Counted from the first letter of the stretch, positions 29,746-61,940 are shown. The stretch is 64,000 nt of DNA from an uncultured Candidatus Saccharibacteria bacterium (GCA_964403725.1 CAYOHI010000002.1:21644-85643); one strand, 5' to 3'. Notes: generated from the sequence alone by a model not told the origin. Made by a program: numbers and translations.

Positions 29746-29782
29746 AAATTAAAGGTCGGGGTTAATTAAAACAAGGGGAAAA

Positions 29783-30232: not shown

Positions 30233-30296
30233 ATTAATTATTGGTTAACAAAGGTCGAGTAATTAGATTTTAAATTTCATCTATTTACGAAAGGGG

Positions 30297-30758: not shown

Positions 30759-30800
30759 TTAGTTTTTAAACAGTCTGGTAACCAGAGACCTCATGAGATA

Positions 30801-32718: not shown

Positions 32719-32721
32719 TTT

Positions 32722-34173: not shown

Positions 34174-34237
34174 GTTTTGTGTTATCCACAGGCGGATTAG
34201 TTTTATTTAAAAAATTTTGCTATAATAAAGTAAATAA

Positions 34238-40358: not shown

Positions 40359-40360
40359 GA

Positions 40361-44195: not shown

Positions 44196-44199
44196 TTTT

Positions 44200-45405: not shown

Positions 45406-46333
45406 GATGAATAAAATTAAGATTTTAACCCCGATTGATAATGTTGATGAATTTGAATTACTATCATCAGCTGGTGCTGATGAATTCTATTGCGGGGTCA
45501 TTATAAATGACAAAAAATATAACAGCGATAGAATTGGAAAACAGAAACAGGAAAATATTTCTGGGATCAGTGAATTGAAGAAATTAGTCAAAAAGATAAA
45601 AGATAATAAAAAAGATTTGTATCTAGTTTTGAACGCCCAATACTTATCTTCAAGAGATATAAATGAAGCTGGAAGAAGAATAGATGCCTTTAAGAAAATA
45701 GGAATAGATAATTATATAGTATCTAACTTGAATCTAATAGATAAGGTAAAGGATAAGGATATCAATATCATTATCAGTTCCTTTTTAGAAGCTAAAAATG
45801 TCGAAACGGTAAAATTTCTCAAGAAATTCAAGCCAAAGAGAATCATATTAGACAGGCAGATTACAGCCAGTGATTTAAAAGCCATAACATCTGAATTTCC
45901 AAGATTAGAATTTGAAACATTTATCATGGAAGCAGCATGCCGGAGCCTGGACAGTTACTGCAACCGACATATTTTCAACTATAAAAAACATACTTGTAGA
46001 GAAAATTTCAAAATAGACAACAAGAAAGGATTAACAAGGTCAGAATTGAATACGATTACTTCAAGATTAAAGATGCCGATTGTTAATTGCGGTATTTGCG
46101 CTTTATACCAATTTAGGAATTTAAATGTTGAATCGGTTAAGATAGTAGGGCGCGGCTATCCAACTAAATGGAAAGTTAAAAATGTTAAGCATGTCAGAGA
46201 TGCCTTGGGCGTATTAAATGACACTAAGAGCAAAAAAGAATATCATCAGAAATGCCTAAGTCTGTTTAAGAAAACTTATAATTTCCCTTGTAATAAAGAG
46301 TATTGCTATTACCCTCATTTTTTTAAAAATTAA
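45398..46333 (+). CDS. peptidase U32-family protein (second large-subunit candidate)
   Basis: ILTPIDNVDEFELLSSAGADEFYCGV start, FETFIMEAACRS...C and CGICALYQF Cys-containing segments. Confidence 0.45.
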   Translation: MIKMNKIKILTPIDNVDEFELLSSAGADEFYCGVIINDKKYNSDRIGKQKQENISGISELKKLVKKIKDNKKDLYLVLNAQYLSSRDINEAGRRIDAFKKIGIDNYIVSNLNLIDKVKDKDINIIISSFLEAKNVETVKFLKKFKPKRIILDRQITASDLKAITSEFPRLEFETFIMEAACRSLDSYCNRHIFNYKKHTCRENFKIDNKKGLTRSELNTITSRLKMPIVNCGICALYQFRNLNVESVKIVGRGYPTKWKVKNVKHVRDALGVLNDTKSKKEYHQKCLSLFKKTYNFPCNKEYCYYPHFFKN

Positions 46334-46337
46334 GATT

Positions 46338-47051
46338 ATGGAAAATGTCTTGTTAATCAACAGAATAGAAGATATTAAATTATTAACCGATAAGTATTCT
46401 CGTGTTTATCTTGGCAACGAGTTCTGTTCTAGATTGTTGCCGACTGAATCTGAGATAAAGAAGATATTAGCTGTAGTTAAGAAAGAAAAACTAAAATTAA
46501 CTATTGTCACATCATTTGCCGGTGAAGATGAATTAAAAAAGATAAAGAAGTTTTTTAGCATAGTTAATAAGCATGAGATGTTAGATGAAGTAGTTGTAAA
46601 TGATTATGGAATCTTGAATCTTTTAATCAATAAATATCCAAAAGTTAAATTGGTTGCTGGCCGGGCTCTATCAAGATTCTATAATTTTGATAAAAAGAAT
46701 TATTTGTATGATAAGATTGGAATAAGGAGGTTTGAATTCGATAGTAATCGCATTAATGAAGATGCTTTAAAAAATATATCTTCAGTAAAATTTTCCTATT
46801 ATCATCCCTATTCTATCCTGAATACGACGCGCTATTGTTCAGTAGTAGACAAGAAAAACAAAAGTAGTAATATTGGTATTCTAAAATGCAATCAGGAATG
46901 TCAAAAAATCGGTTCTCTAAAGCTGAAAAACAAGCTTATTAGAAACAAATTAACTCTTAGAGGAAATGCAATATTTATTAATAATAAAGAAGATAAGTTA
47001 AAAGTCATAAAGAATATTAAAGCGATCGATCGTTTAGTATTTCAAAATTAA
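46338..47051 (+). CDS. small U32-family protein paralog (second UbiV-like candidate)
   Basis: RVYLGNEFCSRLLP and C-x16-C-x3-C (RYCSVV...ILKCNQEC). Paralog of 43431..44195. Confidence 0.4.
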   Translation: MENVLLINRIEDIKLLTDKYSRVYLGNEFCSRLLPTESEIKKILAVVKKEKLKLTIVTSFAGEDELKKIKKFFSIVNKHEMLDEVVVNDYGILNLLINKYPKVKLVAGRALSRFYNFDKKNYLYDKIGIRRFEFDSNRINEDALKNISSVKFSYYHPYSILNTTRYCSVVDKKNKSSNIGILKCNQECQKIGSLKLKNKLIRNKLTLRGNAIFINNKEDKLKVIKNIKAIDRLVFQN

Positions 47052-47053
47052 TT

Positions 47054-47905
47054 ATGCCTAATATCTTAATAACAAATACTTGCAATCAGAAATGCCCATA
47101 TTGTTTCGCCCGAGATGAAATGAAGAATAAGAAAAAGCCGAATGAAATGTCTTTTGGTGATTTTAAAAAGATAATCAATCTTTTCAAGAAAGACGAAGAG
47201 CGATGCATCCGGTTAATGGGCGGAGAACCAACCCTTCATTCTAAATTTAAAGAGATTGTAGATTATTCCCTAAACGAAGGTTTTCTTGTCCAAATTTTTA
47301 CCAATGGTATTTTTAATAATGATATTTTAGAATTTCTTTTAAGCAAGAAAGATTTGATTAAATACAGTTTCAATCTTAATCATCCCAATAAATACGATAA
47401 AAAAACATGGGAATTGATCAATAGAAATATTAAAGAATTATCTGTCTTCAAGAAAGTGCTTGTTGGAGGAGTGGTGTCTGATAAGAATTTCAATATAGAC
47501 TACTTAGTAGAGATTGCAGATAAAAATAAGATAATAAATATTGCTTTGCGCCCAGATAATACTGTTGATAAGAATAAGGATATTGCAAAAACAATAATTA
47601 GAGAAATTAAAAAAGTTGATAAGAAAAAGTTTAATATTTGCTATGGTTGCGGCTTGTCAAAAGATGATTTAACGGATAATCAAATAAAGTTAATCGAAAG
47701 TCATTGTCGCCAAGAAGTGAAGTATGGATGTGATGGTAATAGCGGGCGTTTTGATATTGATGTGGATCTATCTGTCTTTCGTTGTTTCCCTTTATCAAAA
47801 TGGCATGTTAAAAAAATTGATGATTTTAATAATTTAGAAGAAATAGAAGAATACTTTAATAGTTTAATTAGGAACAATAAGGTTAATTGTGCTTTGATTG
47901 AATAA
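47054..47905 (+). CDS. radical SAM protein with C-terminal auxiliary Cys motifs
   Basis: ITNTCNQKCPYC (CxxxCxxC) and GGEPTLH. C-terminal CYGCG...C...YGCDGNSG. Confidence 0.7.
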   Translation: MPNILITNTCNQKCPYCFARDEMKNKKKPNEMSFGDFKKIINLFKKDEERCIRLMGGEPTLHSKFKEIVDYSLNEGFLVQIFTNGIFNNDILEFLLSKKDLIKYSFNLNHPNKYDKKTWELINRNIKELSVFKKVLVGGVVSDKNFNIDYLVEIADKNKIINIALRPDNTVDKNKDIAKTIIREIKKVDKKKFNICYGCGLSKDDLTDNQIKLIESHCRQEVKYGCDGNSGRFDIDVDLSVFRCFPLSKWHVKKIDDFNNLEEIEEYFNSLIRNNKVNCALIE

Positions 47906-48974
47906 TATGAAAATAGCTTTATTTTGCTCATCAAGAAATAGGATTCCATCAATCAAGACTGGCGGCACTGAACAGCCAATTTACTATTTGGCTAAAACTT
48001 TAGCTGAGCGTAAGCATGATGTCACGGTTTTTGCCGCTAAAGGATCAAGAATACCAAAAGTAAAAGTAAAGGAGATATCGCCTTTCGTGACTTTTGCTAA
48101 GCAAAAATTCTTAAATCTCCAAGAAAGGATTTCCAGCTTTTACGACTTGTCTGCCTTGGCTGATTTTTTCCACAATGAAGCTGATAAATATGATATCATT
48201 CAATTCAACAGCTATATATTCTATGAAATATTACCCTTTCTTAAATTAACTGAAAAGCCAGTAATAATTAGGATTAACTATCCTCATAATCTGATTTATC
48301 CATATATTAAAGATGAGTTGTTAAAGTATAAAAATGTTCATTACCTGCCAATATCTAAATTTATAAAATCAGCTATGCCAGACTTGAATTATTTGAATCC
48401 GATTTATCCAGGAATAGATATTAATGATTTTAAATACTCTGCAAAACACAAAGACTATTTACTATTCATAGGACGAGTTTGTCATAATAAAGGTGCTCAT
48501 CTGGCAATTGAAGTCGCTAGGAAAACTAATAATAAATTAATAATTGCTGGAAGGATTGATCAGGAAGACGGAGATAAATATTATAAAGAAGAAGTAGAGC
48601 CATATTTAAATGATAAAATACAATATATAGGAGAAGTGGATTTTAAAACTAAAGTAAAATTATACCGAGGAGCAATAACTACTTTATTCCCAATTCTCTG
48701 GGATGAGCCCTTTGGCAATGTTCCAATTGAATCCATGGCTTGTGGTACGCCAGTAATAGCGTTTGATAGAGCTGCCATGAAAGAATCAGTCAAAGATAAG
48801 CTTAGTGGGTTTTTAGTTAAAAATATCAGCCAAATGATTAAAAAGGTTAGTGAAATAGAGAAAATAGATAGAGAAAAAACAAGGAAGTGGGCAATTGATA
48901 ATTTTTCTAATGAAATAATAACTGATAAATATATTAAATCATACAAAAAGTTAAATGATAAAAAAACCGATTAA
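47898..48974 (+). CDS. family-1/4 glycosyltransferase (GT-B)
   Basis: EPFGNVPIESMACGTPVIA matches the GT4 E-x7-E motif. Confidence 0.7.
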   Translation: MNNMKIALFCSSRNRIPSIKTGGTEQPIYYLAKTLAERKHDVTVFAAKGSRIPKVKVKEISPFVTFAKQKFLNLQERISSFYDLSALADFFHNEADKYDIIQFNSYIFYEILPFLKLTEKPVIIRINYPHNLIYPYIKDELLKYKNVHYLPISKFIKSAMPDLNYLNPIYPGIDINDFKYSAKHKDYLLFIGRVCHNKGAHLAIEVARKTNNKLIIAGRIDQEDGDKYYKEEVEPYLNDKIQYIGEVDFKTKVKLYRGAITTLFPILWDEPFGNVPIESMACGTPVIAFDRAAMKESVKDKLSGFLVKNISQMIKKVSEIEKIDREKTRKWAIDNFSNEIITDKYIKSYKKLNDKKTD

Positions 48975-50706: not shown

Positions 50707-51629
50707 ATGGAAAAACTAGAAAATACTTTAATACTTTAATAATTGAGCCGACTAATAGGTGTAATTTAATGTGTCCTATTTGTCCTACGGGTAGTAACAT
50801 TAATGAAAAATTAAAGGGAGACATGACTTTTCAACAATTCAAAAATATTATTAATTCAACTAAGCATTTTTTGAAATTTGTTAATTTATGGGGTTATGGC
50901 GAACCATTTTTAGCGCCGGATATAATGAAGATGATAAATTATACTGGAGAGAACGATATAAAAGTCAACGTTCATACTAATGGCAATGTTTTAAATAAAA
51001 AAACAATGGATCAGTTTAAGGAAAACCATAAGGTGGCAATTTCTTTTTCTGTAGATGGCCTTACTCGAGAATCATATAGTTATTACAGAAGAGGTGGTAA
51101 TCTTAAAAAAGTGCTAGATAATTTATCTTATTTAGTTAATTTAAAGAGGAAGCATAATTTATGCAATTTAGAGATTACTTGGCAGTTTCTAATAAATAAA
51201 GGGAATGAACATGAAGCGGAAAATGCCAGTGAATTTGCCAGGAAAATAGGAGTTGACTATTTCAAACAAAAAACAATTAACGTTAATGAGAAACATCCTG
51301 ATTACAATGATTTCATACCCAGAAGTAGTAAATACAAGAGAAAGAAAGAAACAATTATTAGTACTAAATCATGTATTTTTATTGATCCAGGAATGCCTAA
51401 TGTCTTTTGGGATGGTGATGTTTTGCCTTGTTGTAGATATTATAAAAAAAATAATTACATGGGCAATGTATTTAAAAAAGATTTAATAAAAATTTGGGAT
51501 AGTAAGGTATATAGAAAATTTAGAGATGATCATAAAAAAGGGACAAATAAATTATGCAACAGAAACTGTGGGTTTAGTAAAAAATCAGTAATCTATATTA
51601 ATGAAAAGAATTTTACTTTACGCAGCTAA
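50703..51629 (+). CDS. radical SAM/SPASM-like protein
   Basis: PTNRCNLMCPICP (CxxxCxxC). C-terminal Cys-rich region (CIFID...LPCCRYY...CNRNC). Confidence 0.7.
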   Translation: MNGKTRKYFNTLIIEPTNRCNLMCPICPTGSNINEKLKGDMTFQQFKNIINSTKHFLKFVNLWGYGEPFLAPDIMKMINYTGENDIKVNVHTNGNVLNKKTMDQFKENHKVAISFSVDGLTRESYSYYRRGGNLKKVLDNLSYLVNLKRKHNLCNLEITWQFLINKGNEHEAENASEFARKIGVDYFKQKTINVNEKHPDYNDFIPRSSKYKRKKETIISTKSCIFIDPGMPNVFWDGDVLPCCRYYKKNNYMGNVFKKDLIKIWDSKVYRKFRDDHKKGTNKLCNRNCGFSKKSVIYINEKNFTLRS

Positions 51630-53691
51630 TGGAGTTGGACTGGGTCATTTAAAGAGGGTTAGTTTGGTTGCAGAAAATTTTAAATCAGAAAAGATCGAGA
51701 TAATATTGGCAACTTCATCAAAAAAGCCTAATGCTTTTGGTAAATTCTATAACCACCTTATTAAATTACATCCAATTTCAAACAAAATAATAAAAAGTAG
51801 TTCAGAGAATTTAGATAAAAGACAGAAAAACAAAGAGATTCTTTTGAAATCTTTTAAGAAATTTAAACCAGACTTAGTAATAGCTGATTTTCTCCTGAAT
51901 TCTTGGGAATTTACTTTTCATCCTCTAAGAAGTGCTTTAGATAAGTTTAAAACTAGAGCTGTTTTTGTTTGGCGATTCAAAGATTTTAAGAATTTAGATG
52001 ATGACTTAGATAATAAGGAAGTCAGGAATAAATTAAGGTATTTTGATAAAATTGTAATCTCTCATGACGAAGATGAAATGAAATATCTCTTATCTTCAAA
52101 AGCCCTAAAGAAGATAAAAGATATTCCAAATGCTGAAATTTGCGGACCGATTATTCAAGATTTAGATAAGGATAAAATAAAAAAGACACGCTCAAGGCAC
52201 AAGATATCCAGTGAGGATTTCTTGATAACAGTTACTCTAGGAGCCGGAGGCGTACTAAAAGAAGGTAGTTGTGAGTCGGCTAAAAAAATTGTTGATAATT
52301 TTTTAGCCATTCATAATAGATTAATTAAAAATACCCCAAATCTAAAAGCAATAATCGTTACTGGTCCATATTTTAAAAATACAGAAAAGAAGAAATTTCC
52401 AAAATTAAAATTTGTTAAATTTGAAAAGAATCTACCAGAATTATTATCCCTATCTAATCTAGTTATTTCTGCTGCCGGGTATAATACTTGCAATGAGATT
52501 ATACAAGCAAAAACCCCAGCCATTTTGATTCCGTTATTAAGAGGCAGTAATGAGCAATTTGAAAGAGCCAAGTATCTAAGGAAAAAAGGAATAGCTCTGG
52601 TTCCTAGGAATAATTCTTCAGATGAACTTTTTAATTCAATAATGGATTCCAAAGCGAAAAAGAGGAAATCTTTCAATTTGAAACCAGGAAACAAGAAAGC
52701 AGCTGAAATAGCCTTAAATTTATTAAATGAAAACAATAGGGATTTAAAAGATAATCCATACTTGCCTGATGATAAGGATTTTTTTGATACTGATAAAGCA
52801 AAAATTAAGATAAATTTCAAAAAGAATAAATCCAAACCGAAATTCAGTATTGTTATTCCGACATATAATAAGAAAGAAAGCTTGGAATTCGTTCTGAAAA
52901 GTTTTTTTAATCAAGGTTATCCAAAATCAAAATATGAAATAATAGTCATAGATGACGGTAGTAATGATAATACTTTGGAAATGATAAAAAAACTCAAACC
53001 GACCTGTAATTTCAAATATATCTATTGGCCAAGAAAAAATATAAAAGTCAAAAAGGAGCACAGAAGATTCGCTAAATTCTATAACCGAGCCGGATTAGCC
53101 AGAAATATTGGCATTAAGTATTCAAAAGGAAATATCATTTTATTCAACGACTCAGATATTTTGACAGATAAGGATTGTTTAAAGAAACACAAGAAATATC
53201 ATAGCAAATATTCAAACATAGTAGTTCGTGGATATAGGATGCTTTTGCCAAAGGAATTCAATATTAAAAAAAATAATGATTTAACATTGATTAAGAAAAG
53301 CTCTGTCCAAGAGAAACCTAAAGATGAAACCAAGCTTCATTGTCGAATGTATGACTTATCAAAAGAAGGATGGCAAAGAATTGTTACTTGTAATTTATCA
53401 ATAAAGAAAAAGTATCTTGAAGAAGTAAATGGTTTTAGTAAGGATTTTGTTTTTTGGGGATTTGAAGATGTTGATTTGGGTTATAGATTAAAGAAATTAG
53501 ATTTAAAATTCATTTGGGATGAAAAGATAAAGGTATATCATATCTGGCATCCAAGAGAAGCGGGGAAAAAGAAAAAGGACTTGGAAGCTTTTAAAATAGG
53601 TGCTAATATTCTTTATAACAAGCATAAAGACTGGGAAATAATTAATATTTTTACAGACGTCATAAAACGACGTTTTGGTAAGTTATTATGA
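51601..53691 (+). CDS. bifunctional glycosyltransferase: N-terminal GT-B (MurG/GT28-like) fused to C-terminal GT2
   Basis: N-terminal AANGVGLGHLKR and ISAAGYNTCNEI (GT28 C-terminal-like). C-terminal FSIVIPTYNK..IIVIDDGSNDNT (GT2 DxD) and FWGFEDVDLGYR. Confidence 0.6.
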   Translation: MKRILLYAANGVGLGHLKRVSLVAENFKSEKIEIILATSSKKPNAFGKFYNHLIKLHPISNKIIKSSSENLDKRQKNKEILLKSFKKFKPDLVIADFLLNSWEFTFHPLRSALDKFKTRAVFVWRFKDFKNLDDDLDNKEVRNKLRYFDKIVISHDEDEMKYLLSSKALKKIKDIPNAEICGPIIQDLDKDKIKKTRSRHKISSEDFLITVTLGAGGVLKEGSCESAKKIVDNFLAIHNRLIKNTPNLKAIIVTGPYFKNTEKKKFPKLKFVKFEKNLPELLSLSNLVISAAGYNTCNEIIQAKTPAILIPLLRGSNEQFERAKYLRKKGIALVPRNNSSDELFNSIMDSKAKKRKSFNLKPGNKKAAEIALNLLNENNRDLKDNPYLPDDKDFFDTDKAKIKINFKKNKSKPKFSIVIPTYNKKESLEFVLKSFFNQGYPKSKYEIIVIDDGSNDNTLEMIKKLKPTCNFKYIYWPRKNIKVKKEHRRFAKFYNRAGLARNIGIKYSKGNIILFNDSDILTDKDCLKKHKKYHSKYSNIVVRGYRMLLPKEFNIKKNNDLTLIKKSSVQEKPKDETKLHCRMYDLSKEGWQRIVTCNLSIKKKYLEEVNGFSKDFVFWGFEDVDLGYRLKKLDLKFIWDEKIKVYHIWHPREAGKKKKDLEAFKIGANILYNKHKDWEIINIFTDVIKRRFGKLL

Positions 53692-54707
53692 AAATTTTAG
53701 CTATAGATACAACTGGATTCAGTGCTGGCTTGGCCATAGTTAAGGATGGCAACGAGGTTTTAATGAATAAGATTGGTTCAGGCTATGTTCCTAATAAGCT
53801 TTGGAGTGATTTTCCATATATCTTGCCAGACCAGCACATTAAATTCTTAATTAAAAATACAAAAAAAATTAATTGGAATGAAATTGATGCAATTGCAGTG
53901 AGTGCAGATTCAGGCATATATACCTGTATTTTGGCGGGCGTGGCTATAGCTGAGACCTTAAGTCAGTGTCATAAAAAACAATTAATTAAAGTAGACCATA
54001 TCTTATCTCATCTTTATTCGACTTGGCTTGAAAGGAATCACAAAGATTTTCAATTCCCCATACTAGTTTTTTCTGCCTCGGGCAGTCATAGTGATCTTTC
54101 ATTGCTTAAGGATAGAAAGAGCTGTCAGACAGTTTTTGATACTGTGCCTAAAAAAACTAAAGATGAAGTGAGTTTTTTTATAGGAATTGGTAAGATTTTT
54201 TATCAAGTTGGCAAAAGACTAGGTTTAATTTCCTCATCAGAAGCCGGAGTTGATAGCTTAATAAAGGCAGCTTCTTTAGGTGATGCTAATAAGTTTGATT
54301 TTACTAAATTCTATAAAGGCCCTTTAATGGATCTTAATTTTTTTGATTTTATGGAATCTATCATTAGCTTTGCTGAAAAAGAAAAGAAAAAGAACAGTCA
54401 ATTCATTAATGATGTAGCAGCTAGTTTCCAAGAATCAATTGTTCAAATACTTTCCGATAAGATATTTAGAATAGCTGAAATTAAGAAAGCTAAGGAAATC
54501 CATATTGCTGGTGGCATTTCAATGAATAAGTATTTGGAAAAAACATTGAAACAGAGGATAAAGAAAGAAAAATTGCCTTTTACTCTGCGTTATCCAACTA
54601 AGAAAAATTACCGCTTAGATAATGCTGCTATGATCGGCGCTTTAGCCTATTATCAGAAGAAATATAAGATAAAATTCAAAAACTTTAAACCAAGCGTTAC
54701 AAAATGA
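53688..54707 (+). CDS. Kae1/TsaD/Qri7-family paralog (ASKHA fold), divergent
   Basis: MKILAIDTTG N-terminus, DHILSH in place of the HxEGH metal motif, IHIAGGISMNKYL in place of AGGVxAN. Confidence 0.5.
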   Translation: MKILAIDTTGFSAGLAIVKDGNEVLMNKIGSGYVPNKLWSDFPYILPDQHIKFLIKNTKKINWNEIDAIAVSADSGIYTCILAGVAIAETLSQCHKKQLIKVDHILSHLYSTWLERNHKDFQFPILVFSASGSHSDLSLLKDRKSCQTVFDTVPKKTKDEVSFFIGIGKIFYQVGKRLGLISSSEAGVDSLIKAASLGDANKFDFTKFYKGPLMDLNFFDFMESIISFAEKEKKKNSQFINDVAASFQESIVQILSDKIFRIAEIKKAKEIHIAGGISMNKYLEKTLKQRIKKEKLPFTLRYPTKKNYRLDNAAMIGALAYYQKKYKIKFKNFKPSVTK

Positions 54708-55306
54708 ATATTTTAAAATTCAATCCTAAAAGTAAATTAGAAACTCAAAGAGCGGTTGACGAATCGGTGATAGTTTTAAAAAAGGGAGGTATCATCATTC
54801 ATCCAACTGATACTTGCTATGGCATTGCTGCTGATATGGGAAATGAAAAGGCAATTAAGAAAGTATACCGATTTAAAGGCAGGGATTTTAACAAACCTTG
54901 CTTCATCATTGCTAGAAATGTAAATCAGTTTAAAAAATATGGATCTTGGAATAAATTAGCCCAAGAAATGATTGAAAAGAATCCTAGGAAAATGTTCACT
55001 TTTGTCGTTTCTAGAAAAAAAATGGTGCCTGAATTTTTAAATCCTGATTTTGATACTGTGGGTATTCAAATGCCTAAACGTCCTTTTTCTCAAGTATTGC
55101 TTAAAGATTTTGGCAGGCCGCTGGTTGGCACAAGCGCTAATCTATCTAGTTTGCCAGTTGTCTATTCAATAGAGGAATTAATGGATCAGTTAAGTGATGT
55201 GAAGATTTATCCAGATCTAATTTTAGATGGCGGCCGGTTTCCCATAAAAAAACCTTCTAGTATAATTAGAATAAAAGGAAGGAAAGTCGAAATACTAAGA
55301 AAATGA
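54704..55306 (+). CDS. YrdC/Sua5-family (threonylcarbamoyl-AMP synthase fold) protein
   Basis: IIHPTDTCYGIAADMGNEKAIKKVYRFKGRDFNKP matches the YrdC signature. GRPLVGTSANLS C-terminal motif. Confidence 0.65.
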   Translation: MNILKFNPKSKLETQRAVDESVIVLKKGGIIIHPTDTCYGIAADMGNEKAIKKVYRFKGRDFNKPCFIIARNVNQFKKYGSWNKLAQEMIEKNPRKMFTFVVSRKKMVPEFLNPDFDTVGIQMPKRPFSQVLLKDFGRPLVGTSANLSSLPVVYSIEELMDQLSDVKIYPDLILDGGRFPIKKPSSIIRIKGRKVEILRK

Positions 55307-56661
55307 GATTTAAAATAGATCAATCAAATTATGGAATGCTTCCTCGGTTGGGGGATTTTTTAATAAATAACAAGATAGATAAGGTAGAAATAGAAATAAC
55401 TGATGATTTGGAAAAACTACCATACTTTTCAGATATCATTCCATCTATATATCAATTACTTGATTATGAAATGTATTTTCAAGTTTGGTTAAAAAATATT
55501 CCAATTTGTGTCATTTCGCCGCAAGCCATTGACCATATTTTGCCCAGTAGCGATTTTAAAGGAGAAAAAGATAAACAATGCAAGGATTGCTATTGGAATA
55601 AGAAATGCTCTGGTTTTCCAAAAGGATACTTTAAAAAATATGATTCTCAAGAGATTTGCCCTAAGCCTGACTTGCCTGAAGAGATAATGATTGAAGTCGA
55701 GCCGAAATGTAATTTTGATTGTCAGTTTTGCTTTAATAAGGTTTCTTTTGCTAAACATGGCAGGGATATTAAGGAAATAAGTACAAAAAGCATTAAGAAA
55801 TTAATTGATAATATTACTGGATTGGGTATAGGAATAATTAGGTTTACTGGCGGAGAGCCGCTATTGAGAAAAGATATTTTTCAATTATTAAAATATTCTA
55901 AAGATAAGGGCTTAGAAGTTAGATTGAATACTAATGGATCTTTAATTGATAATAAAGTAGCTAGTAAGCTAAGGGGTATAGTTGATAATGTTTTGATTCC
56001 AATTGAGAGCTATACAGACAAAGAAGAAACAAAGCTTACCAATACTAAAAATTCATTAAAGAAAAAAGTAAAAGCAATAGAATTATTAAAAAAGCAGAAT
56101 ATTCCTGTAGTCAGGGCCGGAACGGTTGCAACACAGGAAAATATCTTATCATTTGATAAGATCGCCCAATTCATTTCCAAACTTCCTCTAGATGAATGGG
56201 AACTGTACCGTCCAGTTCCAATCTCTAAGAAAAAAGATTTAAATTCAAAACATATCAATATTCTAGTTGATAAGCTGATTAACTTGAGAAAAGCGACTGA
56301 CAAGCCCGTATTTATTGCCAATGCAATTCCTTTTTGCAGCATTAAGGATATGAATAGAATTAATAGTGTTAGCAAAGGTGCTTTGCACGATGATGGTCAC
56401 AGTAGATTGGTTATCGATCCGCGTGGATTTGTTAAGCCGCACTATTTCTTAAATGAAGATTTGGGTTCTTTCAAGGATATTATAAGAGCTTGGCATAATC
56501 CTTTTATTAAAAAAATGAGAAATCTGGAATTTCTACCAAAAGAATGCCAGAATTGTCCGTTTTCTTTCAAATGCCGGGGTGGCAGTCGACATGCGGCAAA
56601 AATAATTAACGGAGGATATGACAGATTAGATCCTCTAGCTAAATATTATGGAAAGAGTTGA
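55303..56661 (+). CDS. radical SAM protein with N-terminal Cys-motif domain and C-terminal twitch/SPASM-like Cys cluster
   Basis: N-terminal CKDCYWNKKCSGFPKGY. EPKCNFDCQFC (CxxxCxxC) and TGGEPLL. C-terminal CQNCPFSFKCRGG. Confidence 0.7.
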   Translation: MRFKIDQSNYGMLPRLGDFLINNKIDKVEIEITDDLEKLPYFSDIIPSIYQLLDYEMYFQVWLKNIPICVISPQAIDHILPSSDFKGEKDKQCKDCYWNKKCSGFPKGYFKKYDSQEICPKPDLPEEIMIEVEPKCNFDCQFCFNKVSFAKHGRDIKEISTKSIKKLIDNITGLGIGIIRFTGGEPLLRKDIFQLLKYSKDKGLEVRLNTNGSLIDNKVASKLRGIVDNVLIPIESYTDKEETKLTNTKNSLKKKVKAIELLKKQNIPVVRAGTVATQENILSFDKIAQFISKLPLDEWELYRPVPISKKKDLNSKHINILVDKLINLRKATDKPVFIANAIPFCSIKDMNRINSVSKGALHDDGHSRLVIDPRGFVKPHYFLNEDLGSFKDIIRAWHNPFIKKMRNLEFLPKECQNCPFSFKCRGGSRHAAKIINGGYDRLDPLAKYYGKS

Positions 56662-57541
56662 TATTAAAATAGGGTTTGGCTGTAATAATCATTGTCTTTT
56701 TTGTGTTCAAGGTGATAAAAGGAATTTTTGCCAGTCCAAGCCAAAAAAAGAAATAGAAAGATCTCTTAAAGAGGCTTTTAAGAAAAACAAGGAAGAGGTT
56801 GTTTTCACTGGCGGTGAGCCGTGCATGCATCCTAATTTTTTAGAATTGGTTAAAATAGCCAAAAATATCGGTTTTAAAGAAATTCAAGTTCAAACCAATG
56901 GTCGGATGTTGGCTTACGATGATTTCTGTCTAAAGGTTGTCCAGGCTGGAGCAACTCAATTTTCACCAGCCCTGCATGGGTCAAATGCTAGAACCCATGA
57001 CTATCTGACCTGCGCTAAAGGCAGCTTTGACCAGACAATCCAAGGAATTAAAAATCTTAAGAAGTTAAACCAGTATGTTTTAACTAATACGGTTATTACC
57101 TCGAAAAACTATAAGCAAATTCCTAAGATAGCTGAAATATTGGTTAATTTAGATGTTGATCAATTCCAGTTTGCCTTTATTCACTTGGGTGGAATTGCTT
57201 GGGAAAACAAAGATTGGATTGTTCCTAAAAAAATCCTAATCATGCCTTTTGTTAAAAAAGGATTAGATGTTGGATTAAAGGCTAAGAAGAGGGTAACTAC
57301 CGAAGCAATCCCATATTGCTTGATGAAAGGTTACGAGGATTGTATTGCTGAAAGAATCATTCCCAAATCGATGGTTTTTGATTCTGATTTCGTGGTTGAG
57401 GATTACTCAGGGTATCGAAAAGATAAAGGGAAAGCTAAAGGACCGAATTGCAAGAAATGCAAATATGATAAAATCTGTGAAGGGCCTTGGAAAGAATATC
57501 CTGAATTGTTTGGTTGGAAAGAATTTAAGCCAGTGAAATAA
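56648..57541 (+). CDS. radical SAM protein, CNNxCxFC/twitch-type family (paralog 1)
   Basis: GFGCNNHCLFC, TGGEPC, GSFDQTIQGIKNL. C-terminal CKKCKYDKICEGPWKEYPELFGWKEFKP. Confidence 0.7.
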   Translation: MERVDIKIGFGCNNHCLFCVQGDKRNFCQSKPKKEIERSLKEAFKKNKEEVVFTGGEPCMHPNFLELVKIAKNIGFKEIQVQTNGRMLAYDDFCLKVVQAGATQFSPALHGSNARTHDYLTCAKGSFDQTIQGIKNLKKLNQYVLTNTVITSKNYKQIPKIAEILVNLDVDQFQFAFIHLGGIAWENKDWIVPKKILIMPFVKKGLDVGLKAKKRVTTEAIPYCLMKGYEDCIAERIIPKSMVFDSDFVVEDYSGYRKDKGKAKGPNCKKCKYDKICEGPWKEYPELFGWKEFKPVK

Positions 57542-57543
57542 AT

Positions 57544-58269
57544 ATGGGAAATTTTTCTGGATTAGTTAAAAGAATAAAAGTAGCAAGAAATATCATTTCA
57601 GTCGAAGATCCTCTGTTGATTGATATCCTGTCCAGTAATTATGGCCGAAAAATCAGATCTATCAAAAGGATAAATAGAAAGAAATCCTTCATTTGTAGAG
57701 CTTGGAAAGTCGAATTTATTTCCCATAAATCTGCTTTTATGAAAATAGATTTTGATGTTGATTCAAAGAACTTGCTGTTACAGGAAAAAGTCTTTCAATC
57801 TAAAATTTTTAAAGCAAATGAAGTTGTCTTACCTTTATGGCCGACAAAAGATAACCATCCTATGCTGTCGTTGAAATGCCCTAGAAAGCCATTTAATCTT
57901 ACGCTTTCCGATTATTTAGAAAATACTATTAATTTTAAAAAGAAATATTTTTCAGACTTAGCAGTAATATTGGCCAAATTGCATTCGAAGAAAAGAAATA
58001 ATCTTGTTTTATCTCACGGTGATTTTACAAGGGAGAACATTCTATTGGATGAGAATAAGAATATATGGTTGGTTGATTGGGAAAATTCTAAATTTGGCTA
58101 TCCAGAATGCGATATAAGCTATTTTGTAAGAGATGGCATGGATGCTTATGGATTGGAAATAAATAATCCATTGCATAAGTCATTTCTCAAAACATATGAA
58201 AAATATTCTAAATTAAAGGTTGATTGCAATCGTTTAGAGAAATATTTAAAGGATTTTAATAAGAAATGA
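57544..58269 (+). CDS. protein-kinase-like fold small-molecule kinase (APH/choline kinase family)
   Basis: HGDFTRENILL (HGDxxxxN catalytic loop) and WLVDWENS (DxE metal-binding). Confidence 0.55.
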   Translation: MGNFSGLVKRIKVARNIISVEDPLLIDILSSNYGRKIRSIKRINRKKSFICRAWKVEFISHKSAFMKIDFDVDSKNLLLQEKVFQSKIFKANEVVLPLWPTKDNHPMLSLKCPRKPFNLTLSDYLENTINFKKKYFSDLAVILAKLHSKKRNNLVLSHGDFTRENILLDENKNIWLVDWENSKFGYPECDISYFVRDGMDAYGLEINNPLHKSFLKTYEKYSKLKVDCNRLEKYLKDFNKK

Positions 58270-60170
58270 AAAAAAGACTATACTTTGCCAGTTTAGACAA
58301 ATGCAATGAAGATTGTCTTTTTTGTGTGCGCGGCGGCGATGAAAAACCGATTGGCCACATTGATACAAAACGAGCAAAAAAGATTATTTCAGAAAAAAAG
58401 AAAAAAGGTTATCAGGAAATTTTTTTTGATGGCGGAGAACCGACTTTAAGGGATGACTTGACTGAATTAATTGAATTTTCTAAAAAGAAAAAATATTCAG
58501 CAGCCAATATTTTGACCAATGGAGTTCTGCTTTCAAAAGAAAAATTAGTCAAAGACCTATTATCAGTAAAAAACACAAAAAACTTCAGTTTATCTTTTTC
58601 CGTCTCTCTTCACTCACATAAAAAAGATATTTCAGAAAAACTAGTTGGCAGAAAAAATACTTTTAACAGAACTATTAAAGGAATAGATAATCTGATTAAG
58701 AATGGATGTGATAGCATTTCCATTTATCATGTCATTACCAAATACAACTACAAAGATCTGCCAGGCTTTGTTAAGTTTATCAACAAAAAGTTTCCTCAAG
58801 TTAAAAATATTACTTTCTCATATATCTACCCAGTCGGGGCTGCCTTGAAAAATAAAAAGATTTTCCCGCAACTTTCCAAAACAGAAATATATTTCCAAAA
58901 AGCCTTAAAGCTATGCAAAGAATATAAGATGAATTTTTCAATCACTACTTGCGGCACTATTCCTTTATGCTTTTTAAAAGGTTATGAAGATATCCTATTA
59001 AACCAACAGGAATTAGATCAACCAGGAAAAGTGGGTATAGTGGATACGGTTAAAGATGAACAATATCAGTTAGCTACAGATCAATTTCATGAAAAAACTA
59101 AAATTAAATCATCTAAATGCAAGGATTGTTTGTATGATGATAAATGTGGTGGTATTTGGCGAACTTATGTTGAACTTTATGGATTAAACGAATTAAAGCC
59201 AATAAAAAAGAAAAAACCTGAAAATCAGAATGTCCTCCTATTACTAACAGGATTCTCTTGTAATAATAATTGTGTTTTTTGCTCTAACGTAGCTGACCGC
59301 AATTTTAATAGCTCAACCAAAGAACTGTTTAAAAAAATTGATCAGGGCTATGAAAAAGGATTTAGAATTCTAGAACTCATTGGCGGCGAAGTTCCCATTA
59401 GGCCTGATTTTTTTGAATTAATTAATTATGCCAAAAAAGCTGGCTTTAAAGATATTAGATTGACTTCTAATGGCCGGATCTTTTCCTATCCGGAATATGC
59501 CAAGAAAGTAGCTCAAGCAGGATTAAAAGTTATGACTGTTTCTCTGTATGGTCACAAGAAATCATTGCATGACGGAGTCACCAGGACACCGGGATCATTT
59601 GACCAGTGTATCAAAGGCATTAAAAATATTTCTAAAACAGGAATAGAATTAGTCATCAATACCGTTATCTCAAAAGTAAATTACAAATATCTGTATGAAA
59701 TCGGTAATTTTGTCAGTCAATTGGGAGTTAAAGAATGGCATCCTTTAGAATTGCTGCCTGATGGCCAAGGCGCTAAGCATTATGATAGTCTAGCTGTTCC
59801 ATACAAGGAGCTTTCAAAATATATTAGGAAGATTAATAAATTAGCTGGTTCTAAATTTAAAAGAATAGATTTCTTTGATTTTCCTTTCTGTGTTTTCAAC
59901 AAAGAGATGCTGAAAAACAAAAATATTGTCATGTTCACGCCCGAGAGAAGATGTGAAGATATTAAGATGGAAGCTCATGACTCATCTTCAAGAGTTGATA
60001 AGGTCATAAAAAAAGGAAAAGTAGTTTACCAGGACAAATACAAGACTAAGCCAAAATTCTGCCAAAGCTGCTCGTATTTCAGTCAGTGTGGCGGCGTAAC
60101 TAAGTCATATTTTAAAAAATATGGCGATGAGGAAATAAGGGAATTAGCTAAAAAGAATAAATTTGTATGA
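58266..60170 (+). CDS. fused tandem di-domain radical SAM protein (paralogs 2 and 3 of the CNNxCxFC family)
   Basis: Domain 1: LDKCNEDCLFC...CKDCLYDDKCGGIWRTYVELYGLNELKP. Domain 2: FSCNNNCVFC...GSFDQCIKGIKN...CQSCSYFSQCGGVTKSYFKKYGDEE. Confidence 0.7.
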   Translation: MKKRLYFASLDKCNEDCLFCVRGGDEKPIGHIDTKRAKKIISEKKKKGYQEIFFDGGEPTLRDDLTELIEFSKKKKYSAANILTNGVLLSKEKLVKDLLSVKNTKNFSLSFSVSLHSHKKDISEKLVGRKNTFNRTIKGIDNLIKNGCDSISIYHVITKYNYKDLPGFVKFINKKFPQVKNITFSYIYPVGAALKNKKIFPQLSKTEIYFQKALKLCKEYKMNFSITTCGTIPLCFLKGYEDILLNQQELDQPGKVGIVDTVKDEQYQLATDQFHEKTKIKSSKCKDCLYDDKCGGIWRTYVELYGLNELKPIKKKKPENQNVLLLLTGFSCNNNCVFCSNVADRNFNSSTKELFKKIDQGYEKGFRILELIGGEVPIRPDFFELINYAKKAGFKDIRLTSNGRIFSYPEYAKKVAQAGLKVMTVSLYGHKKSLHDGVTRTPGSFDQCIKGIKNISKTGIELVINTVISKVNYKYLYEIGNFVSQLGVKEWHPLELLPDGQGAKHYDSLAVPYKELSKYIRKINKLAGSKFKRIDFFDFPFCVFNKEMLKNKNIVMFTPERRCEDIKMEAHDSSSRVDKVIKKGKVVYQDKYKTKPKFCQSCSYFSQCGGVTKSYFKKYGDEEIRELAKKNKFV

Positions 60171-61021
60171 AGGAAAAATATTATACAGTAGGCAATAGTC
60201 CGTTTCTTTATGCAGGATATGAATGCAATAATTTGTGTATTTTTTGTTTTGAAGCTGATAGGGAATTTCCCCAGAAAAGCACTAAGAATTTAAAAAAAGA
60301 AATGAAGATTATCAGAAAGAATTTCAATTTCATCAATATTATGGGCCAGGAGCCAACACTAAGAAAAGATATTATTGAACTGATTGATTATGCCAAAGAA
60401 TTGAAATTTAAAGATATAAGCATAACAACAAATGGAAGAATGTTCGCCTATCCTGATTTTACTAAAAATATTTTAAATAGCGGCTTGACTCAGATCGGAT
60501 TAACGATGATGGGCAAAACAGCCAAAATGCATGATCTGCACACTCGGGCTAAAGGAAGCTTTGACCAGGCTTTGATGGGTATTAAAAATATTATGAAATA
60601 CAAGAATGATAATTTCAGTTTTTTGCTTAACTTGATGGTTACTCAGAAAAATTACAAAGATTTAGTTGAAATTATTGATTTCTATGTTGGTCTTGGATTT
60701 AAAGAAATAAATGTCGGCCACATTATGCCCATTAATAGAGCTATTACTAAATCCAAATCAATAGTGGCTCAGATTAGCAAAGTTACTCCATACTTGGTAA
60801 AATGCCAAAAGAAGCATGGAAATGAAGTTAAGTTTCTGTTTGTTGAATATCCAGCTTGTTCTTTTTCTGAAAAATATCGTCATCTGTCATTTCCTTGCCT
60901 GGAAGAAAATCCTGATAAGATAAGGATTAAGATATGCGGGAAGTGCGAATACAGGGATAAATGTGCAGGAATAGGCAAGAGTTACTTAAATCTCTATGGA
61001 GATAAGGAGTTTAAGATATAA
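60167..61021 (+). CDS. radical SAM protein, CNNxCxFC/twitch-type family (paralog 4)
   Basis: YECNNLCIFC, GQEPTL, GSFDQALMGIKN. C-terminal CGKCEYRDKCAGIGKSYLNLYGDKEFK. Confidence 0.7.
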   Translation: MKEKYYTVGNSPFLYAGYECNNLCIFCFEADREFPQKSTKNLKKEMKIIRKNFNFINIMGQEPTLRKDIIELIDYAKELKFKDISITTNGRMFAYPDFTKNILNSGLTQIGLTMMGKTAKMHDLHTRAKGSFDQALMGIKNIMKYKNDNFSFLLNLMVTQKNYKDLVEIIDFYVGLGFKEINVGHIMPINRAITKSKSIVAQISKVTPYLVKCQKKHGNEVKFLFVEYPACSFSEKYRHLSFPCLEENPDKIRIKICGKCEYRDKCAGIGKSYLNLYGDKEFKI

Positions 61022-61938: not shown

Positions 61939-61940
61939 TT

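What the first reader, a model, noticed from the sequence alone, without database searches (positions are those of the whole stretch)
53688..55306. Split Kae1-like + YrdC-like pair in a biosynthetic operon, separate from housekeeping tsaD
A canonical tsaD lies at 6254..7213. The operon adds a divergent Kae1/TsaD-family paralog (the HxEGH metal motif becomes DHILSH) followed directly by a YrdC/Sua5-fold protein. Kae1-like plus YrdC-like is the domain pair of TobZ/NodU/HypF-type carbamoyltransferases. These make a carbamoyl- or threonylcarbamoyl-adenylate and transfer it to a hydroxyl or amine. Here the pair is split into two genes and sits among glycosyltransferases and a kinase. That suggests O- or N-carbamoylation, or threonylcarbamoylation, of the pathway product.
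Basis: partly seen in the sequence, partly recalled or inferred. Interest (0 to 1): 0.7.

Follow-up and report, generated by a model that had tools for sequence, protein, structure and literature searches.

The report
Repurposed t6A-type enzyme pair in Hxs island
Two overlapping genes copied from the universal tRNA-modifying t6A machinery (a TsaD-like transferase and a TsaC-like adenylate synthase) have been rebuilt at their substrate pockets and sit in a large peptide- and sugar-modifying gene island of an ultra-small (Patescibacteria) bacterium, so they most likely add a carbamoyl-type group to something other than tRNA.

Summary
ORF 53688..54707 is a full-length, divergent TsaD/Kae1-family protein. 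ORF 54704..55306 is a TsaC/YrdC-family protein. A canonical tsaD lies at 6254..7213, on the minus strand.

The paralog is not TsaB and not a TobZ/NodU/HypF member. It belongs to a monophyletic, rare clade that descends from bacterial TsaD. The clade keeps the Zn/Fe triad (H104, H108, D311) in 60 of 60 members. It has replaced the threonine pocket, the A37 pocket and the ribose-binding Asp.

Its partner keeps the KxR/T-SxN adenylation motifs. In all 23 partners readable at that position, it has lost the L-threonine-binding Arg (Pa-Sua5 Arg121), which is Gln or His instead.

The order glycosyltransferase, TsaD-like, YrdC-like recurs in about 25 independent loci.

Best reading: a dedicated adenylate-forming and transfer module that adds a carbamoyl-type group to a non-tRNA acceptor, either a glycan or the HxsA4 His-Gly-Ser repeat peptide. 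The group is probably not canonical threonylcarbamoyl. Chemistry and acceptor are inferred. I could not test whether the genome has a second tsaC. This is a new variant of a known kind.

The parts
53688..54707 (+). TsaD-like paralog (339 aa). It is a full-length ASKHA/Kae1-fold protein with an intact H104/H108/D311 metal triad. The threonyl, A37 and ribose pockets are remodelled.
   Evidence: Family scores. Clade residue statistics. AF2 model pLDDT 92, best PDB matches are TsaD. Monophyly 50/50.
54704..55306 (+). TsaC/YrdC-like adenylate synthase paralog (200 aa). It keeps K58xR60, T143-S144xN146, T35, S185 and R199. The threonine-binding Arg is Gln122 and the WPGP motif is lost.
51601..53691 (+). 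GT28-C (MurG-like) plus GT2 fusion glycosyltransferase. It is the conserved immediate upstream neighbour, and its stop overlaps the TsaD-like start.
   Evidence: A GT is the upstream gene in 18 of 21 loci with room.
55303..56661 (+). Radical SAM protein (452 aa), a conserved downstream neighbour. Its start overlaps the YrdC-like stop.
32108..32718 (+). HxsD (32108..32515) and HxsD-related protein (32515..32718).
   Evidence: TIGR03976 56.5 bits (cutoff 50); NF038315 78.4 bits (cutoff 41).
32722..34173 (+). HxsB, the His-Xaa-Ser system radical SAM/SPASM maturase.
   Evidence: TIGR03978 527 bits (cutoff 370). Found on the same contigs as the TsaD-like gene in at least 7 cases.
34238..34558 (+). 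HxsA4 precursor or effector (106 aa). It has an N-terminal hydrophobic segment followed by about 17 His-Gly-Ser repeats. It is a candidate ultimate substrate of the island.
   Evidence: NF038313 72.3 bits, cutoff 55; same arrangement in L011.
47898..48974 (+). GT4-family glycosyltransferase, conserved in most related loci.
56648..62870 (+). Array of HxsC/HxsC4-like radical SAM paralogs: 56648..57541, 58266..60170 (double domain), 60167..61021, 61021..61938 and 61941..62870. A kinase-fold ORF at 57544..58269 interrupts the array.
   Evidence: (HxsC/HxsC4 are the best models, all below cutoff).
6254..7213 (-). Canonical housekeeping tsaD. It is a comparator and not part of the module.
   Evidence: 423 bits, cutoff 296.

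Best explanation
The two genes form a dedicated, co-translated two-step group-transfer module derived from the t6A enzymes.

Step 1 (inferred). The TsaC-like protein uses ATP to make an acyl/carbamoyl-adenylate. Its adenylation residues are intact. Its amino-acid site has lost the threonine-binding Arg. The activated group is therefore probably not L-threonylcarbamoyl. It could be another amine-derived N-carboxy compound, or plain carbamoyl from carbamoyl phosphate.

Step 2 (inferred). The TsaD-like protein binds that adenylate at its conserved His-His-Asp metal centre. It transfers the carbamoyl-type group to a hydroxyl or amine of a non-tRNA acceptor.

Acceptor (inferred from gene order). 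The most likely acceptor is a sugar installed by the GT28C/GT2 enzyme encoded immediately upstream. The alternative is a Ser or His side chain of the HxsA4 His-Gly-Ser repeat peptide matured by this Hxs radical-SAM island.

Shown: family membership, paralogy to housekeeping tsaD, conserved catalytic residues, remodelled specificity pockets, conserved synteny, and linkage to the Hxs core.

Inferred: the donor, the acceptor, and that the two proteins work together.
For: 1. Discrete clade. About 66 homologs at 41-100% identity score at least 255 bits, then scores drop to 168 bits or less for canonical TsaDs. The clade is monophyletic in 50 of 50 NJ bootstraps.

2. Catalytic core under selection. 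H104, H108, D311, SGxH and GGxSxN are kept in 59-60 of 60 members. N280 (= EcTsaD N272, which contacts adenine N1) is kept in 55 of 60.

3. Specificity sites replaced in a clade-invariant way, using EcTsaD numbering and roles from PMC7913687:
- S9 to T (55/60).
- C10 to G (60/60).
- P82 to S (60/60).
- D11 to F (55/60).
- V42 to D/E.
- Y177 variable.
- D167 (ribose) to Y/R in 47/60, kept as D in 8/60.

4. The YrdC partner keeps KxR, T-SxN, T35, S185 and R199 in 32 of 32 members. Arg121 of Pa-Sua5 H-bonds L-Thr (PMC6004061). That position is Gln or His in all 23 partners readable there, out of 26 paired loci plus the window. It is Arg in 20 of 21 other Patescibacterial TsaCs and in EcTsaC and EcYciO. 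It is Met in carbamoyl-phosphate-using EcHypF.

5. Synteny. A YrdC-family gene lies within 2.5 kb downstream in about 23 of 26 loci with room. A GT lies upstream in 18 of 21. The window has ATGA overlaps at all three junctions.

6. The housekeeping TsaD is present in the same window.

7. Hxs core genes lie upstream in the window and in L011. HxsB is on the same contig in at least 7 cases.

8. Precedents. TobZ and HypF use a YrdC plus Kae1 pair for O/S-carbamoylation (PMC9654439). Pandoravirus TsaN is reported inactive on tRNAs while active at the nucleoside level (PMC10484737).
Against: - There is no biochemical evidence of any kind.
- The YrdC-like protein passes NCBIfam's TC-AMP synthase cutoff and keeps four of the five Thr-contacting positions I could map. 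It may therefore still make TC-AMP.
- I could not show that these genomes have a second tsaC/sua5.
- In three loci (L019, L031, L049) no YrdC gene was found next to the TsaD-like gene. This could mean the transferase can use the housekeeping adenylate, TC-AMP.
- Loss of the ribose-binding Asp167 in most members leaves open whether an adenylate is the donor at all.
- The acceptor is inferred only from gene order.
- Linkage to the Hxs core is on the scale of 9-19 kb, and other Patescibacterial Hxs cores carry different tailoring genes.
Confidence: 0.55

Rival explanations
1. Plain TobZ/NodU/HypF-type chemistry. The YrdC-like protein converts carbamoyl phosphate plus ATP into carbamoyl-AMP. The TsaD-like protein O- or N-carbamoylates a sugar or peptide. 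This is a specific sub-case of the best explanation, listed separately because the donor differs.
For: - The Thr-binding Arg is absent, as in EcHypF (Met300).
- The WPGP motif is lost, as in HypF.
- The GT is immediately upstream, as in sugar-carbamoylating pathways.
- There are weak Pfam hits to HypF_C_2 (30 bits, cutoff 27) and Carbam_trans_N (21 bits).
- PGAP names P0056 a 'carbamoyltransferase N-terminal domain-containing protein'.
Against: - T35 and S185 are invariant here but are Gly220 and Asp361 in EcHypF. Part of the amino-acid site is therefore still under selection.
- Both proteins are much closer to TsaC and TsaD than to HypF or TobZ.
- No carbamoyl-phosphate-forming gene was seen in the window.
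Confidence: 0.25
2. Canonical threonylcarbamoyl transfer to a new acceptor. The YrdC-like protein makes genuine TC-AMP, possibly also serving t6A. The TsaD-like protein places threonylcarbamoyl on a non-tRNA molecule.
For: - TIGR00057 scores 154 bits, above its cutoff of 123.
- KxR, T-SxN, T35, S185 and R199 are intact.
- Three loci lack an adjacent YrdC gene, which would fit use of housekeeping TC-AMP.
- TsaN, a TsaC/TsaD-domain fusion, is reported inactive on tRNAs while active at the nucleoside level.
Against: - Arg121-equivalent is replaced in every partner readable at that position.
- The threonyl pocket of the transferase (S9, C10, P82) is replaced. In EcTsaD the S9G/C10G double mutant is inactive.
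Confidence: 0.15
3. It is simply the housekeeping t6A machinery in an odd place. The YrdC-like protein is the only TsaC, and the TsaD-like protein is a TsaB-type partner or second TsaD acting on tRNA.
For: - No TsaB, TsaE or second TsaC lies in the 64-kb window.
- The N-terminus ILAIDT resembles EcTsaB MRILAIDT.
- TIGR03725 gives a weak 25-bit hit.
Against: - The TsaB model scores 25 bits against a cutoff of 69. phmmer against EcTsaB finds no hit, while EcTsaD scores 64 bits.
- The protein is full length with an invariant metal triad. From my own knowledge, not tested here, TsaB lacks that triad.
- The clade is rare: 7 GTDB species representatives were found by the pattern scan of 185,579.
- It always sits in the GT/rSAM island, including in a Gastranaerophilaceae MAG.
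- The A37 pocket is replaced.
- The YrdC clade differs from other Patescibacterial TsaCs at the Thr-binding Arg.
Confidence: 0.05
4. The TsaD-like protein is a non-catalytic scaffold or substrate-binding subunit (pseudoenzyme) of the radical-SAM/GT machinery. In that case the adjacency to YrdC has no chemical meaning.
For: - The ribose-binding Asp is lost in most members and the GEAFDK motif is rewritten.
- TsaB, a paralog of TsaD, has this kind of non-catalytic partner role.
Against: - The three metal ligands are conserved in 60 of 60 members, and SGxH and GGxSxN in 59-60 of 60. New clade-specific pocket residues G10 (60/60) and K169 (59/60) are also fixed, which indicates a selected active site.
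- Coupling with an adenylate-forming partner is tight and recurrent.
Confidence: 0.05

Closest known systems
Bacterial t6A pathway, TsaC (YrdC) plus TsaD (YgjD), with TsaB and TsaE
   Same: - Both proteins are their closest sequence and fold relatives.
- The proteins are separate, with a diffusible adenylate implied.
- The HxxxH...D and KxR/T-SxN catalytic motifs are kept.
   Different: - The TsaD equivalog score is half the cutoff.
- The threonyl pocket, the A37 pocket and ribose Asp167 are replaced in the transferase. The Thr-binding Arg is replaced in the synthase.
- No TsaB or TsaE lies nearby.
- The pair is encoded in a GT/radical-SAM island next to a genuine tsaD elsewhere in the window.
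TobZ/NodU/CmcH O-carbamoyltransferases and HypF
   Same: - The logic is the same: a YrdC-like domain makes an adenylate and a Kae1-like domain transfers it to O/N/S (PMC9654439).
- The context is a sugar-tailoring one.
- The TsaC Thr-binding Arg is missing, as in HypF.
   Different: - The pair is split into two genes.
- It is not a sequence member. Carbam_trans_N is below cutoff, HypF scores 19-59 bits against 466, and TobZ TM is 0.54-0.58.
- It keeps T35 and S185 of the TsaC amino-acid site, which HypF lacks.
- It has no acylphosphatase or Zn-finger domains.
Pandoravirus TsaN (TsaD-TsaC-SUA5-TcdA fusion)
   Same: - It combines TsaC- and TsaD-family domains in one module. The paper reports it inactive on tRNAs while active at the nucleoside level (PMC10484737).
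   Different: - TsaN is a four-domain fusion.
- Per the paper, it still makes TC-AMP.
- It is only a distant structural match (rank 38, E 3e-13).
HXS antiphage system (HxsA/B/C/D; Nat Commun 2026, PMC13128918)
   Same: - The window carries HxsD, HxsB and an HxS-repeat HxsA-type protein above NCBIfam cutoffs, plus HxsC-like radical SAM enzymes.
   Different: - The published system has four genes in the order D-B-C-A. [quoted passage not shown]
- Here the island spans about 30 kb in Patescibacteria.
- It has about 17 HGS repeats, at least 6 HxsC-like domains, three GTs, U32-like proteins and the TsaD-like/YrdC-like pair.
- The paper mentions no TsaD, carbamoyl or GT component.

Membership tests
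TsaD/Kae1/Qri7 (t6A transferase) | HxxxH...D metal-binding triad (EcTsaD H111, H115, D300) | tested here: met
   H104, H108 and D311 are kept in 60 of 60 clade members.
TsaD/Kae1/Qri7 (t6A transferase) | Scores above the curated equivalog cutoff (TIGR03723, 296 bits) | tested here: not met
   153 bits. The window's own tsaD scores 423.
TsaD/Kae1/Qri7 (t6A transferase) | Threonyl pocket S9/C10/P82-G83-L84 and A37 pocket D11/V42/Y177 (PMC7913687) | tested here: not met
   The clade has T9, G10, S75, F11, D/E41 and a variable residue at 182. Canonical sequences are invariant at 50-51 of 51 at all of these positions except Y177 (Y46/F5).
TsaD/Kae1/Qri7 (t6A transferase) | Nucleotide contacts Asp167 (ribose) and Asn272 (adenine N1) | tested here: inconclusive
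   N280 is kept in 55 of 60. The Asp167 equivalent is Y41/D8/R6.
TsaD/Kae1/Qri7 (t6A transferase) | Transfers threonylcarbamoyl to A37 of tRNA | not testable with these tools
   Needs an enzyme assay or complementation.
TsaB (YeaZ) | Matches the TsaB model (TIGR03725, cutoff 69) and resembles E. coli TsaB (231 aa) in sequence and length | tested here: not met
   25 bits. No phmmer hit to EcTsaB. The protein is 339 aa.
TsaC/Sua5 (TC-AMP synthase) | KxR...SxN tetrad and the TsaC signature Thr before SxN | tested here: met
   K58, R60, T143, S144 and N146 are kept in 32 of 32. TIGR00057 scores 154 bits, above 123.
TsaC/Sua5 (TC-AMP synthase) | L-threonine-contacting residues (Pa-Sua5 Thr35, Arg121, Ser181, Arg195; PMC6004061) | tested here: not met
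   T35, S185 and R199 are kept. Arg121 is Gln122 in 30 of 32 clade members. It is Q or H in all 23 partners readable at that position, against R in 20 of 21 other Patescibacterial TsaCs and in EcTsaC R117.
TsaC/Sua5 (TC-AMP synthase) | Is the organism's t6A adenylate synthase (sole copy) | not testable with these tools
   Only the 64-kb window and 10-kb flanks were available. Look-ups to extend the contig failed.
YciO | YciO-type active site (EcYciO has R57xL59 and S144xM146 in place of KxR/SxN) | tested here: not met
   The window protein has KxR and SxN like TsaC.
TobZ/NodU/CmcH carbamoyltransferases | Single polypeptide with Kae1-like and YrdC-like domains; matches Carbam_trans_N (cutoff 24) | tested here: not met
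   Two genes. 21.2 bits. TobZ is Foldseek rank 48, TM 0.54-0.58.
HypF | Acylphosphatase, Zn-finger, YrdC and Kae1 architecture; TIGR00143 cutoff 466 | tested here: not met
   19 and 59 bits for the two proteins. No extra domains.
His-Xaa-Ser (Hxs) system (genomic context) | HxsA repeat protein, HxsB and HxsD above curated cutoffs | tested here: met
   HxsA4 scores 72 (cutoff 55), HxsB 527 (cutoff 370), HxsD 56.5 (cutoff 50) and HxsD-rel 78 (cutoff 41).
His-Xaa-Ser (Hxs) system (genomic context) | A bona fide HxsC next to HxsB, in a four-gene D-B-C-A unit | tested here: not met
   The best HxsC-like ORF (61941..62870) scores 189 bits against a cutoff of 268 and lies 28 kb from HxsB.

The most novel reading that the evidence does not exclude
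The t6A enzyme pair has been duplicated and re-specialised to decorate a ribosomally made, glycosylated His-Gly-Ser repeat surface peptide (HxsA4) with a carbamoyl or non-threonine aminoacyl-carbamoyl group. This would be the first use of TsaC/TsaD-lineage chemistry in protein or glycan maturation. It would operate inside a Patescibacterial giant version of the HXS system, which is an antiphage system in Proteobacteria. A sister clade ('par2', seen in L016 and L030) paired with YrdC genes in other radical-SAM/NRPS-like clusters would make this a wider, unrecognised family of non-tRNA TsaD-like transferases.
Probability: 0.25. Interest if true: 0.8.

Novelty: new variant of a known kind. Interest (0 to 1): 0.62.

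Why it matters
TsaC and TsaD are among the few truly universal enzymes and are treated as dedicated to tRNA t6A. Automatic pipelines name these paralogs inconsistently. JGI calls one an 'N6-L-threonylcarbamoyladenine synthase' and calls the partner an 'L-threonylcarbamoyladenylate synthase' (JGI and NCBI). NCBI names others 'hypothetical' or 'carbamoyltransferase N-terminal domain-containing protein'.

A conserved clade that keeps the catalytic centre but rewrites both the donor-side and acceptor-side pockets, together with a co-varying synthase, gives three things:
- A concrete, testable case of neofunctionalisation of the t6A machinery.
- A caution for t6A gene counting in reduced CPR genomes.
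- A handle on the unknown chemistry of the expanded His-Xaa-Ser systems of Patescibacteria.

Tried and rejected
- **TsaB hypothesis.** Rejected. The TsaB model scores far below cutoff, there is no hit to EcTsaB, and the metal triad is kept.
- **Bud32/KEOPS-like link.** The kinase-fold ORF 57544..58269 gives a 24-bit Bud32 hit. I rejected it as a core link. APH and CotS hits are equal or better, and no match to this kinase ORF was found in the ten related loci scanned with it.
- **Minus-strand nucleoside-type operon as acceptor source.** The operon at 36309..41605 encodes PNP, PRTase, HD, QueC-like and PLP decarboxylase proteins. None of these five was found in the other loci within 10 kb, although the B12-rSAM is. 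It is therefore not core.
- **PADLOC.** Only generic radical-SAM/viperin similarity, and nothing for the pair.
- **Extending the contig.** Looking up the window's terminal proteins found no record. Contig-length fingerprinting did not reveal a second TsaC.
- **A mapping error of my own.** I first mapped EcTsaD Asp167 to the 'DDA' motif. Alignment with the real E. coli sequence showed it is the Asp of GEAFDK.
- **A timed-out script.** A first Biopython tree script timed out. I redid it with numpy distances.
- **Mirror-tree correlation.** Pairwise identities of the transferase and synthase correlate at only r = 0.44. That is not informative beyond shared ancestry.
- **Literature.** Searches found no description of this clade or of TsaD-like genes in Hxs or RiPP clusters.

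Full report
**1. Observation**

The two ORFs are real and lie at the stated coordinates.

- ORF 53688..54707 (339 aa) matches Pfam TsaD (116 bits). Over its whole length it matches the NCBIfam TsaD equivalog at 153 bits, half the 296-bit cutoff. Kae1, HypF and TsaB models score far lower.
- ORF 54704..55306 (200 aa) matches Sua5_yciO_yrdC (150 bits) and TIGR00057 at 154 bits, above its cutoff of 123.
- A canonical tsaD (423 bits) lies at 6254..7213 on the minus strand. It is 29% identical to the paralog.
- The GT stop/TsaD-like start, the TsaD-like stop/YrdC-like start and the YrdC-like stop/rSAM start are all ATGA overlaps.
- A six-frame HMM scan finds no further TsaD-, TsaB- or YrdC-family ORF in the window.

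Both metal-binding His are retained.

**2. The TsaD-like protein is a distinct clade**

A search of 5.8 billion proteins gives about 66 relatives at 41-100% identity (at least 255 bits). Scores then drop sharply to 168 bits or less, where ordinary TsaDs begin.

- In an NJ tree of 116 sequences the 60 full-length members are monophyletic in 50 of 50 bootstraps, on a long stem. The mean distance to canonical TsaDs is 1.53, against 0.63 and 0.76 within the two groups.
- Caveat: the 'canonical' set is the top-scoring hits to the paralog, so sampling is biased.
- The AlphaFold2 model is confident (pLDDT 92, pTM 0.90). Its best PDB matches are bacterial TsaDs (E 5e-22, TM 0.74-0.78), then Kae1 and Qri7. 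TsaN is rank 38. TobZ is rank 48 (TM 0.54-0.58).
- The protein therefore descends from TsaD, not from the TobZ/NodU/HypF lineage.
- It is not TsaB. TIGR03725 scores 25 bits against a cutoff of 69. phmmer gives 64 bits to EcTsaD and no hit to EcTsaB.

**3. Active-site anatomy of the transferase**

I aligned the clade with the real E. coli TsaD sequence. Residue roles come from the BK951-TsaBD structure paper (PMC7913687).

| EcTsaD site | Role | State in the clade |
|---|---|---|
| H111, H115, D300 | Zn ligands | kept, 60/60 |
| N272 | adenine N1 | N in 55/60 |
| SGxH, GGxSxN | ASKHA motifs | kept, 59-60/60 |
| S9 | threonyl pocket | T in 55/60 |
| C10 | threonyl and A37 pocket | G in 60/60 |
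| P82 | threonyl pocket | S in 60/60 |
| D11 | A37 pocket | F in 55/60 |
| V42 | A37 loop | D or E |
| Y177 | A37 pocket | variable |
| D167 | ribose | Y41 / D8 / R6 |

- GEAFDK becomes GKxF(Y)Q, with K169 in 59 of 60.
- In EcTsaD the S9G/C10G double mutant is inactive.
- A preserved catalytic centre with new, clade-invariant pocket residues points to a working enzyme with different substrates. It does not look like a pseudoenzyme.

**4. The YrdC-like partner**

I aligned it with EcTsaC, EcYciO and the EcHypF YrdC domain, with PDB sequences, and with other Patescibacterial TsaCs.

- K58xR60, T143-S144xN146, T35, S185 and R199 are invariant (32 of 32). These include the TsaC signature Thr (PMC10321239).
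- EcYciO lacks KxR/SxN, so the protein is TsaC-like and not YciO-like.
- The universal GxRxP Arg (EcTsaC R117, EcYciO R122) is Gln122 in 30 of 32. This Arg is Pa-Sua5 Arg121, one of five residues that H-bond L-threonine (PMC6004061).
- I examined 26 TsaD-like/YrdC gene pairs from different loci plus the window. Every partner readable at this position (23) has Gln (17) or His (6), and never Arg.
- EcHypF, which uses carbamoyl phosphate, has Met at this position. HypF also lacks T35 and S185, which the clade keeps.
- The WPGP motif is also lost.
- The amino-acid-moiety site is thus altered in both enzymes of the pair. That argues for a donor other than canonical TC-AMP, but does not identify it.

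**5. Genomic context in the window**

Annotating the window shows housekeeping genes and a type IV pilus locus up to about 31.6 kb. Then comes a bona fide His-Xaa-Ser core:

- HxsD 32108..32515.
- HxsD-related 32515..32718.
- HxsB 32722..34173 (527 bits, cutoff 370).
- HxsA4 34238..34558, a 106-aa protein ending in about 17 His-Gly-Ser repeats.

The only HxsC-like radical SAM enzymes lie at 56648..62870. The pair therefore sits between the Hxs core and its presumptive HxsC partners, inside one island of about 30 kb. The island also has three GTs, four U32-like ORFs, an SHMT-like PLP enzyme and many radical SAM genes.

The canonical HXS system is a four-gene antiphage system of Proteobacteria with no such accessories (PMC13128918).

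**6. Conservation of the context elsewhere**

Related loci came from look-ups, a GTDB scan and a metagenome scan.

- The GTDB scan found 7 species representatives with clade members: six MAGs labelled Saccharibacteria and one Parcubacteria.
- A GT is the gene immediately upstream in 18 of 21 loci with room.
- A YrdC-family gene lies within 2.5 kb downstream in about 23 of 26. The exceptions are L019, L031 and L049.
- L011 (GCA_964601305.1) has HxsB and HxsA4 9 kb upstream.
- Contig-length fingerprints place HxsB homologs on the same contigs as TsaD-like genes in at least 7 cases.
- Other Patescibacterial Hxs cores carry different tailoring sets: GT9/PMT in one, NRPS in another. The pair is therefore an accessory module of a subset.
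- A Gastranaerophilaceae MAG carries the same GT2, TsaD-like, YrdC-like order. This suggests the island moves horizontally together with its YrdC gene.

**7. A wider theme**

The NJ sister of the clade is a second divergent group ('par2': L016 125..1234, P0068, P0069, P0071, P0090, P0120).

- It also keeps HxxxH...D but has lost the SCD and GEAFDK motifs.
- P0071 sits in a cluster with radical SAM genes, an A-PCP-sulfotransferase protein, a PPTase, an Asn synthase, a YrdC gene and a GT4.
- L017 has a second in-cluster YrdC paralog.

**8. Interpretation**

The best reading (confidence about 0.55) is a dedicated adenylate-forming and transfer module. It would add a carbamoyl-type group to a non-tRNA acceptor made by the island.

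- Most likely acceptor: a sugar added by the adjacent GT.
- Otherwise: Ser or His of HxsA4.

The donor is uncertain. Conditional on that reading, I put plain carbamoyl (TobZ/HypF-like) at 0.25, genuine threonylcarbamoyl at 0.15, and another N-carboxy-amine for most of the remainder.

Housekeeping t6A is unlikely (0.05). So is a non-catalytic role (0.05).

Still untested:
- Any enzyme activity.
- The acceptor.
- Whether a second tsaC/sua5 exists in these genomes.

**9. Novelty**

Literature searches found no description of this clade, or of TsaD/TsaC-type genes in Hxs or RiPP clusters. I rate it a new variant of a known kind: t6A-lineage enzymes working in the manner of TobZ/HypF, or like TsaN on a non-tRNA substrate.

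Noticed in passing
window 32108..34558: A complete His-Xaa-Ser core (HxsD, HxsD-related, HxsB, HxsA4), all above NCBIfam cutoffs. HxsA4 is a 106-aa protein with an N-terminal hydrophobic segment and about 17 His-Gly-Ser repeats. The published HXS antiphage system is reported 99.7% in Pseudomonadota, so a Patescibacterial type-4 version is notable in itself.
   Followed up: partly
window 56648..62870: Tandem array of at least 6 HxsC/HxsC4-like radical SAM domains, one ORF being a double domain. They share a C-terminal Cx2Cx5-6CxGxW...Y...G..E(F/L)KP motif. All score below the HxsC cutoffs. The array is conserved in related loci.
   Followed up: partly
window 42577..47051: Two Peptidase_U32-family ORFs (42577..43452 and 45398..46333). 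Each is followed by a similar ORF of about 240-255 aa with no Pfam hit (43431..44195 and 46338..47051). An SHMT-like PLP enzyme (44200..45405) lies between the two pairs. From my own knowledge, not tested here, these resemble paired U32 O2-independent hydroxylases. The U32c/U32d pair recurs next to the YrdC-like gene in L015 and L017.
   Followed up: no
window 36309..41605 (minus strand): A divergent six-gene operon: PLP decarboxylase, PNP/UDP phosphorylase, phosphoribosyltransferase, HD-domain (YfbR-like) protein, QueC-like ATPase and B12-binding radical SAM. It looks nucleoside-related. Apart from the B12-rSAM, it was not found within 10 kb in the other loci.
   Followed up: partly
window 22234..31592: Type IV pilus locus: PilM, PilO, two T2SSE ATPases, T2SSF, several prepilin-type N-methyl proteins and an A24 prepilin peptidase. 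It lies directly upstream of the Hxs island. In L011 the island is followed by an A24-like peptidase gene.
   Followed up: no
L016 125..1234; L030 10001..11083: A second, different TsaD-like paralog clade ('par2': IDT(I/V)(L/F)H, HQEAH, CTDNA). In L016 it lies in the same kind of island, next to a gene I judged ATP-grasp-like by eye. In L030 it lies in a radical-SAM/NRPS-like/sulfotransferase cluster that also has a YrdC gene.
   Followed up: partly
L017 1865..2524; L047 10992..11726; L048 5852..6532: Additional YrdC subtypes in the islands. One has PGDAVY in place of PTDT but keeps the Arg. Another has His in place of the Thr-binding Arg and FHFFF in place of GxRxP.
   Followed up: partly
L019/L007 10001..11254: In the 1.27-Mb Parcubacteria contig the TsaD-like protein is 417 aa, with an insertion of about 80 aa. 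It is followed by a 378-aa protein that I judged multi-pass membrane by eye, instead of a YrdC gene.
   Followed up: no
window 57544..58269: Kinase-fold ORF (APH, choline kinase, CotS). It has a weak Bud32 (Kae1-associated kinase) hit of 24 bits. No match to it was found in the related loci scanned.
   Followed up: yes
window 62900..64000: About 1.1 kb after the last island gene has no ORF of 75 aa or more and no Rfam gathering-level hit.
   Followed up: no
window 18669..18743, 19764..19846: Two of the four tRNA genes found by Rfam overlap the 5' ends of mechanically listed ORFs (16581..18710 RecG; 19294..19848). The true starts of those ORFs are probably further downstream.
   Followed up: no
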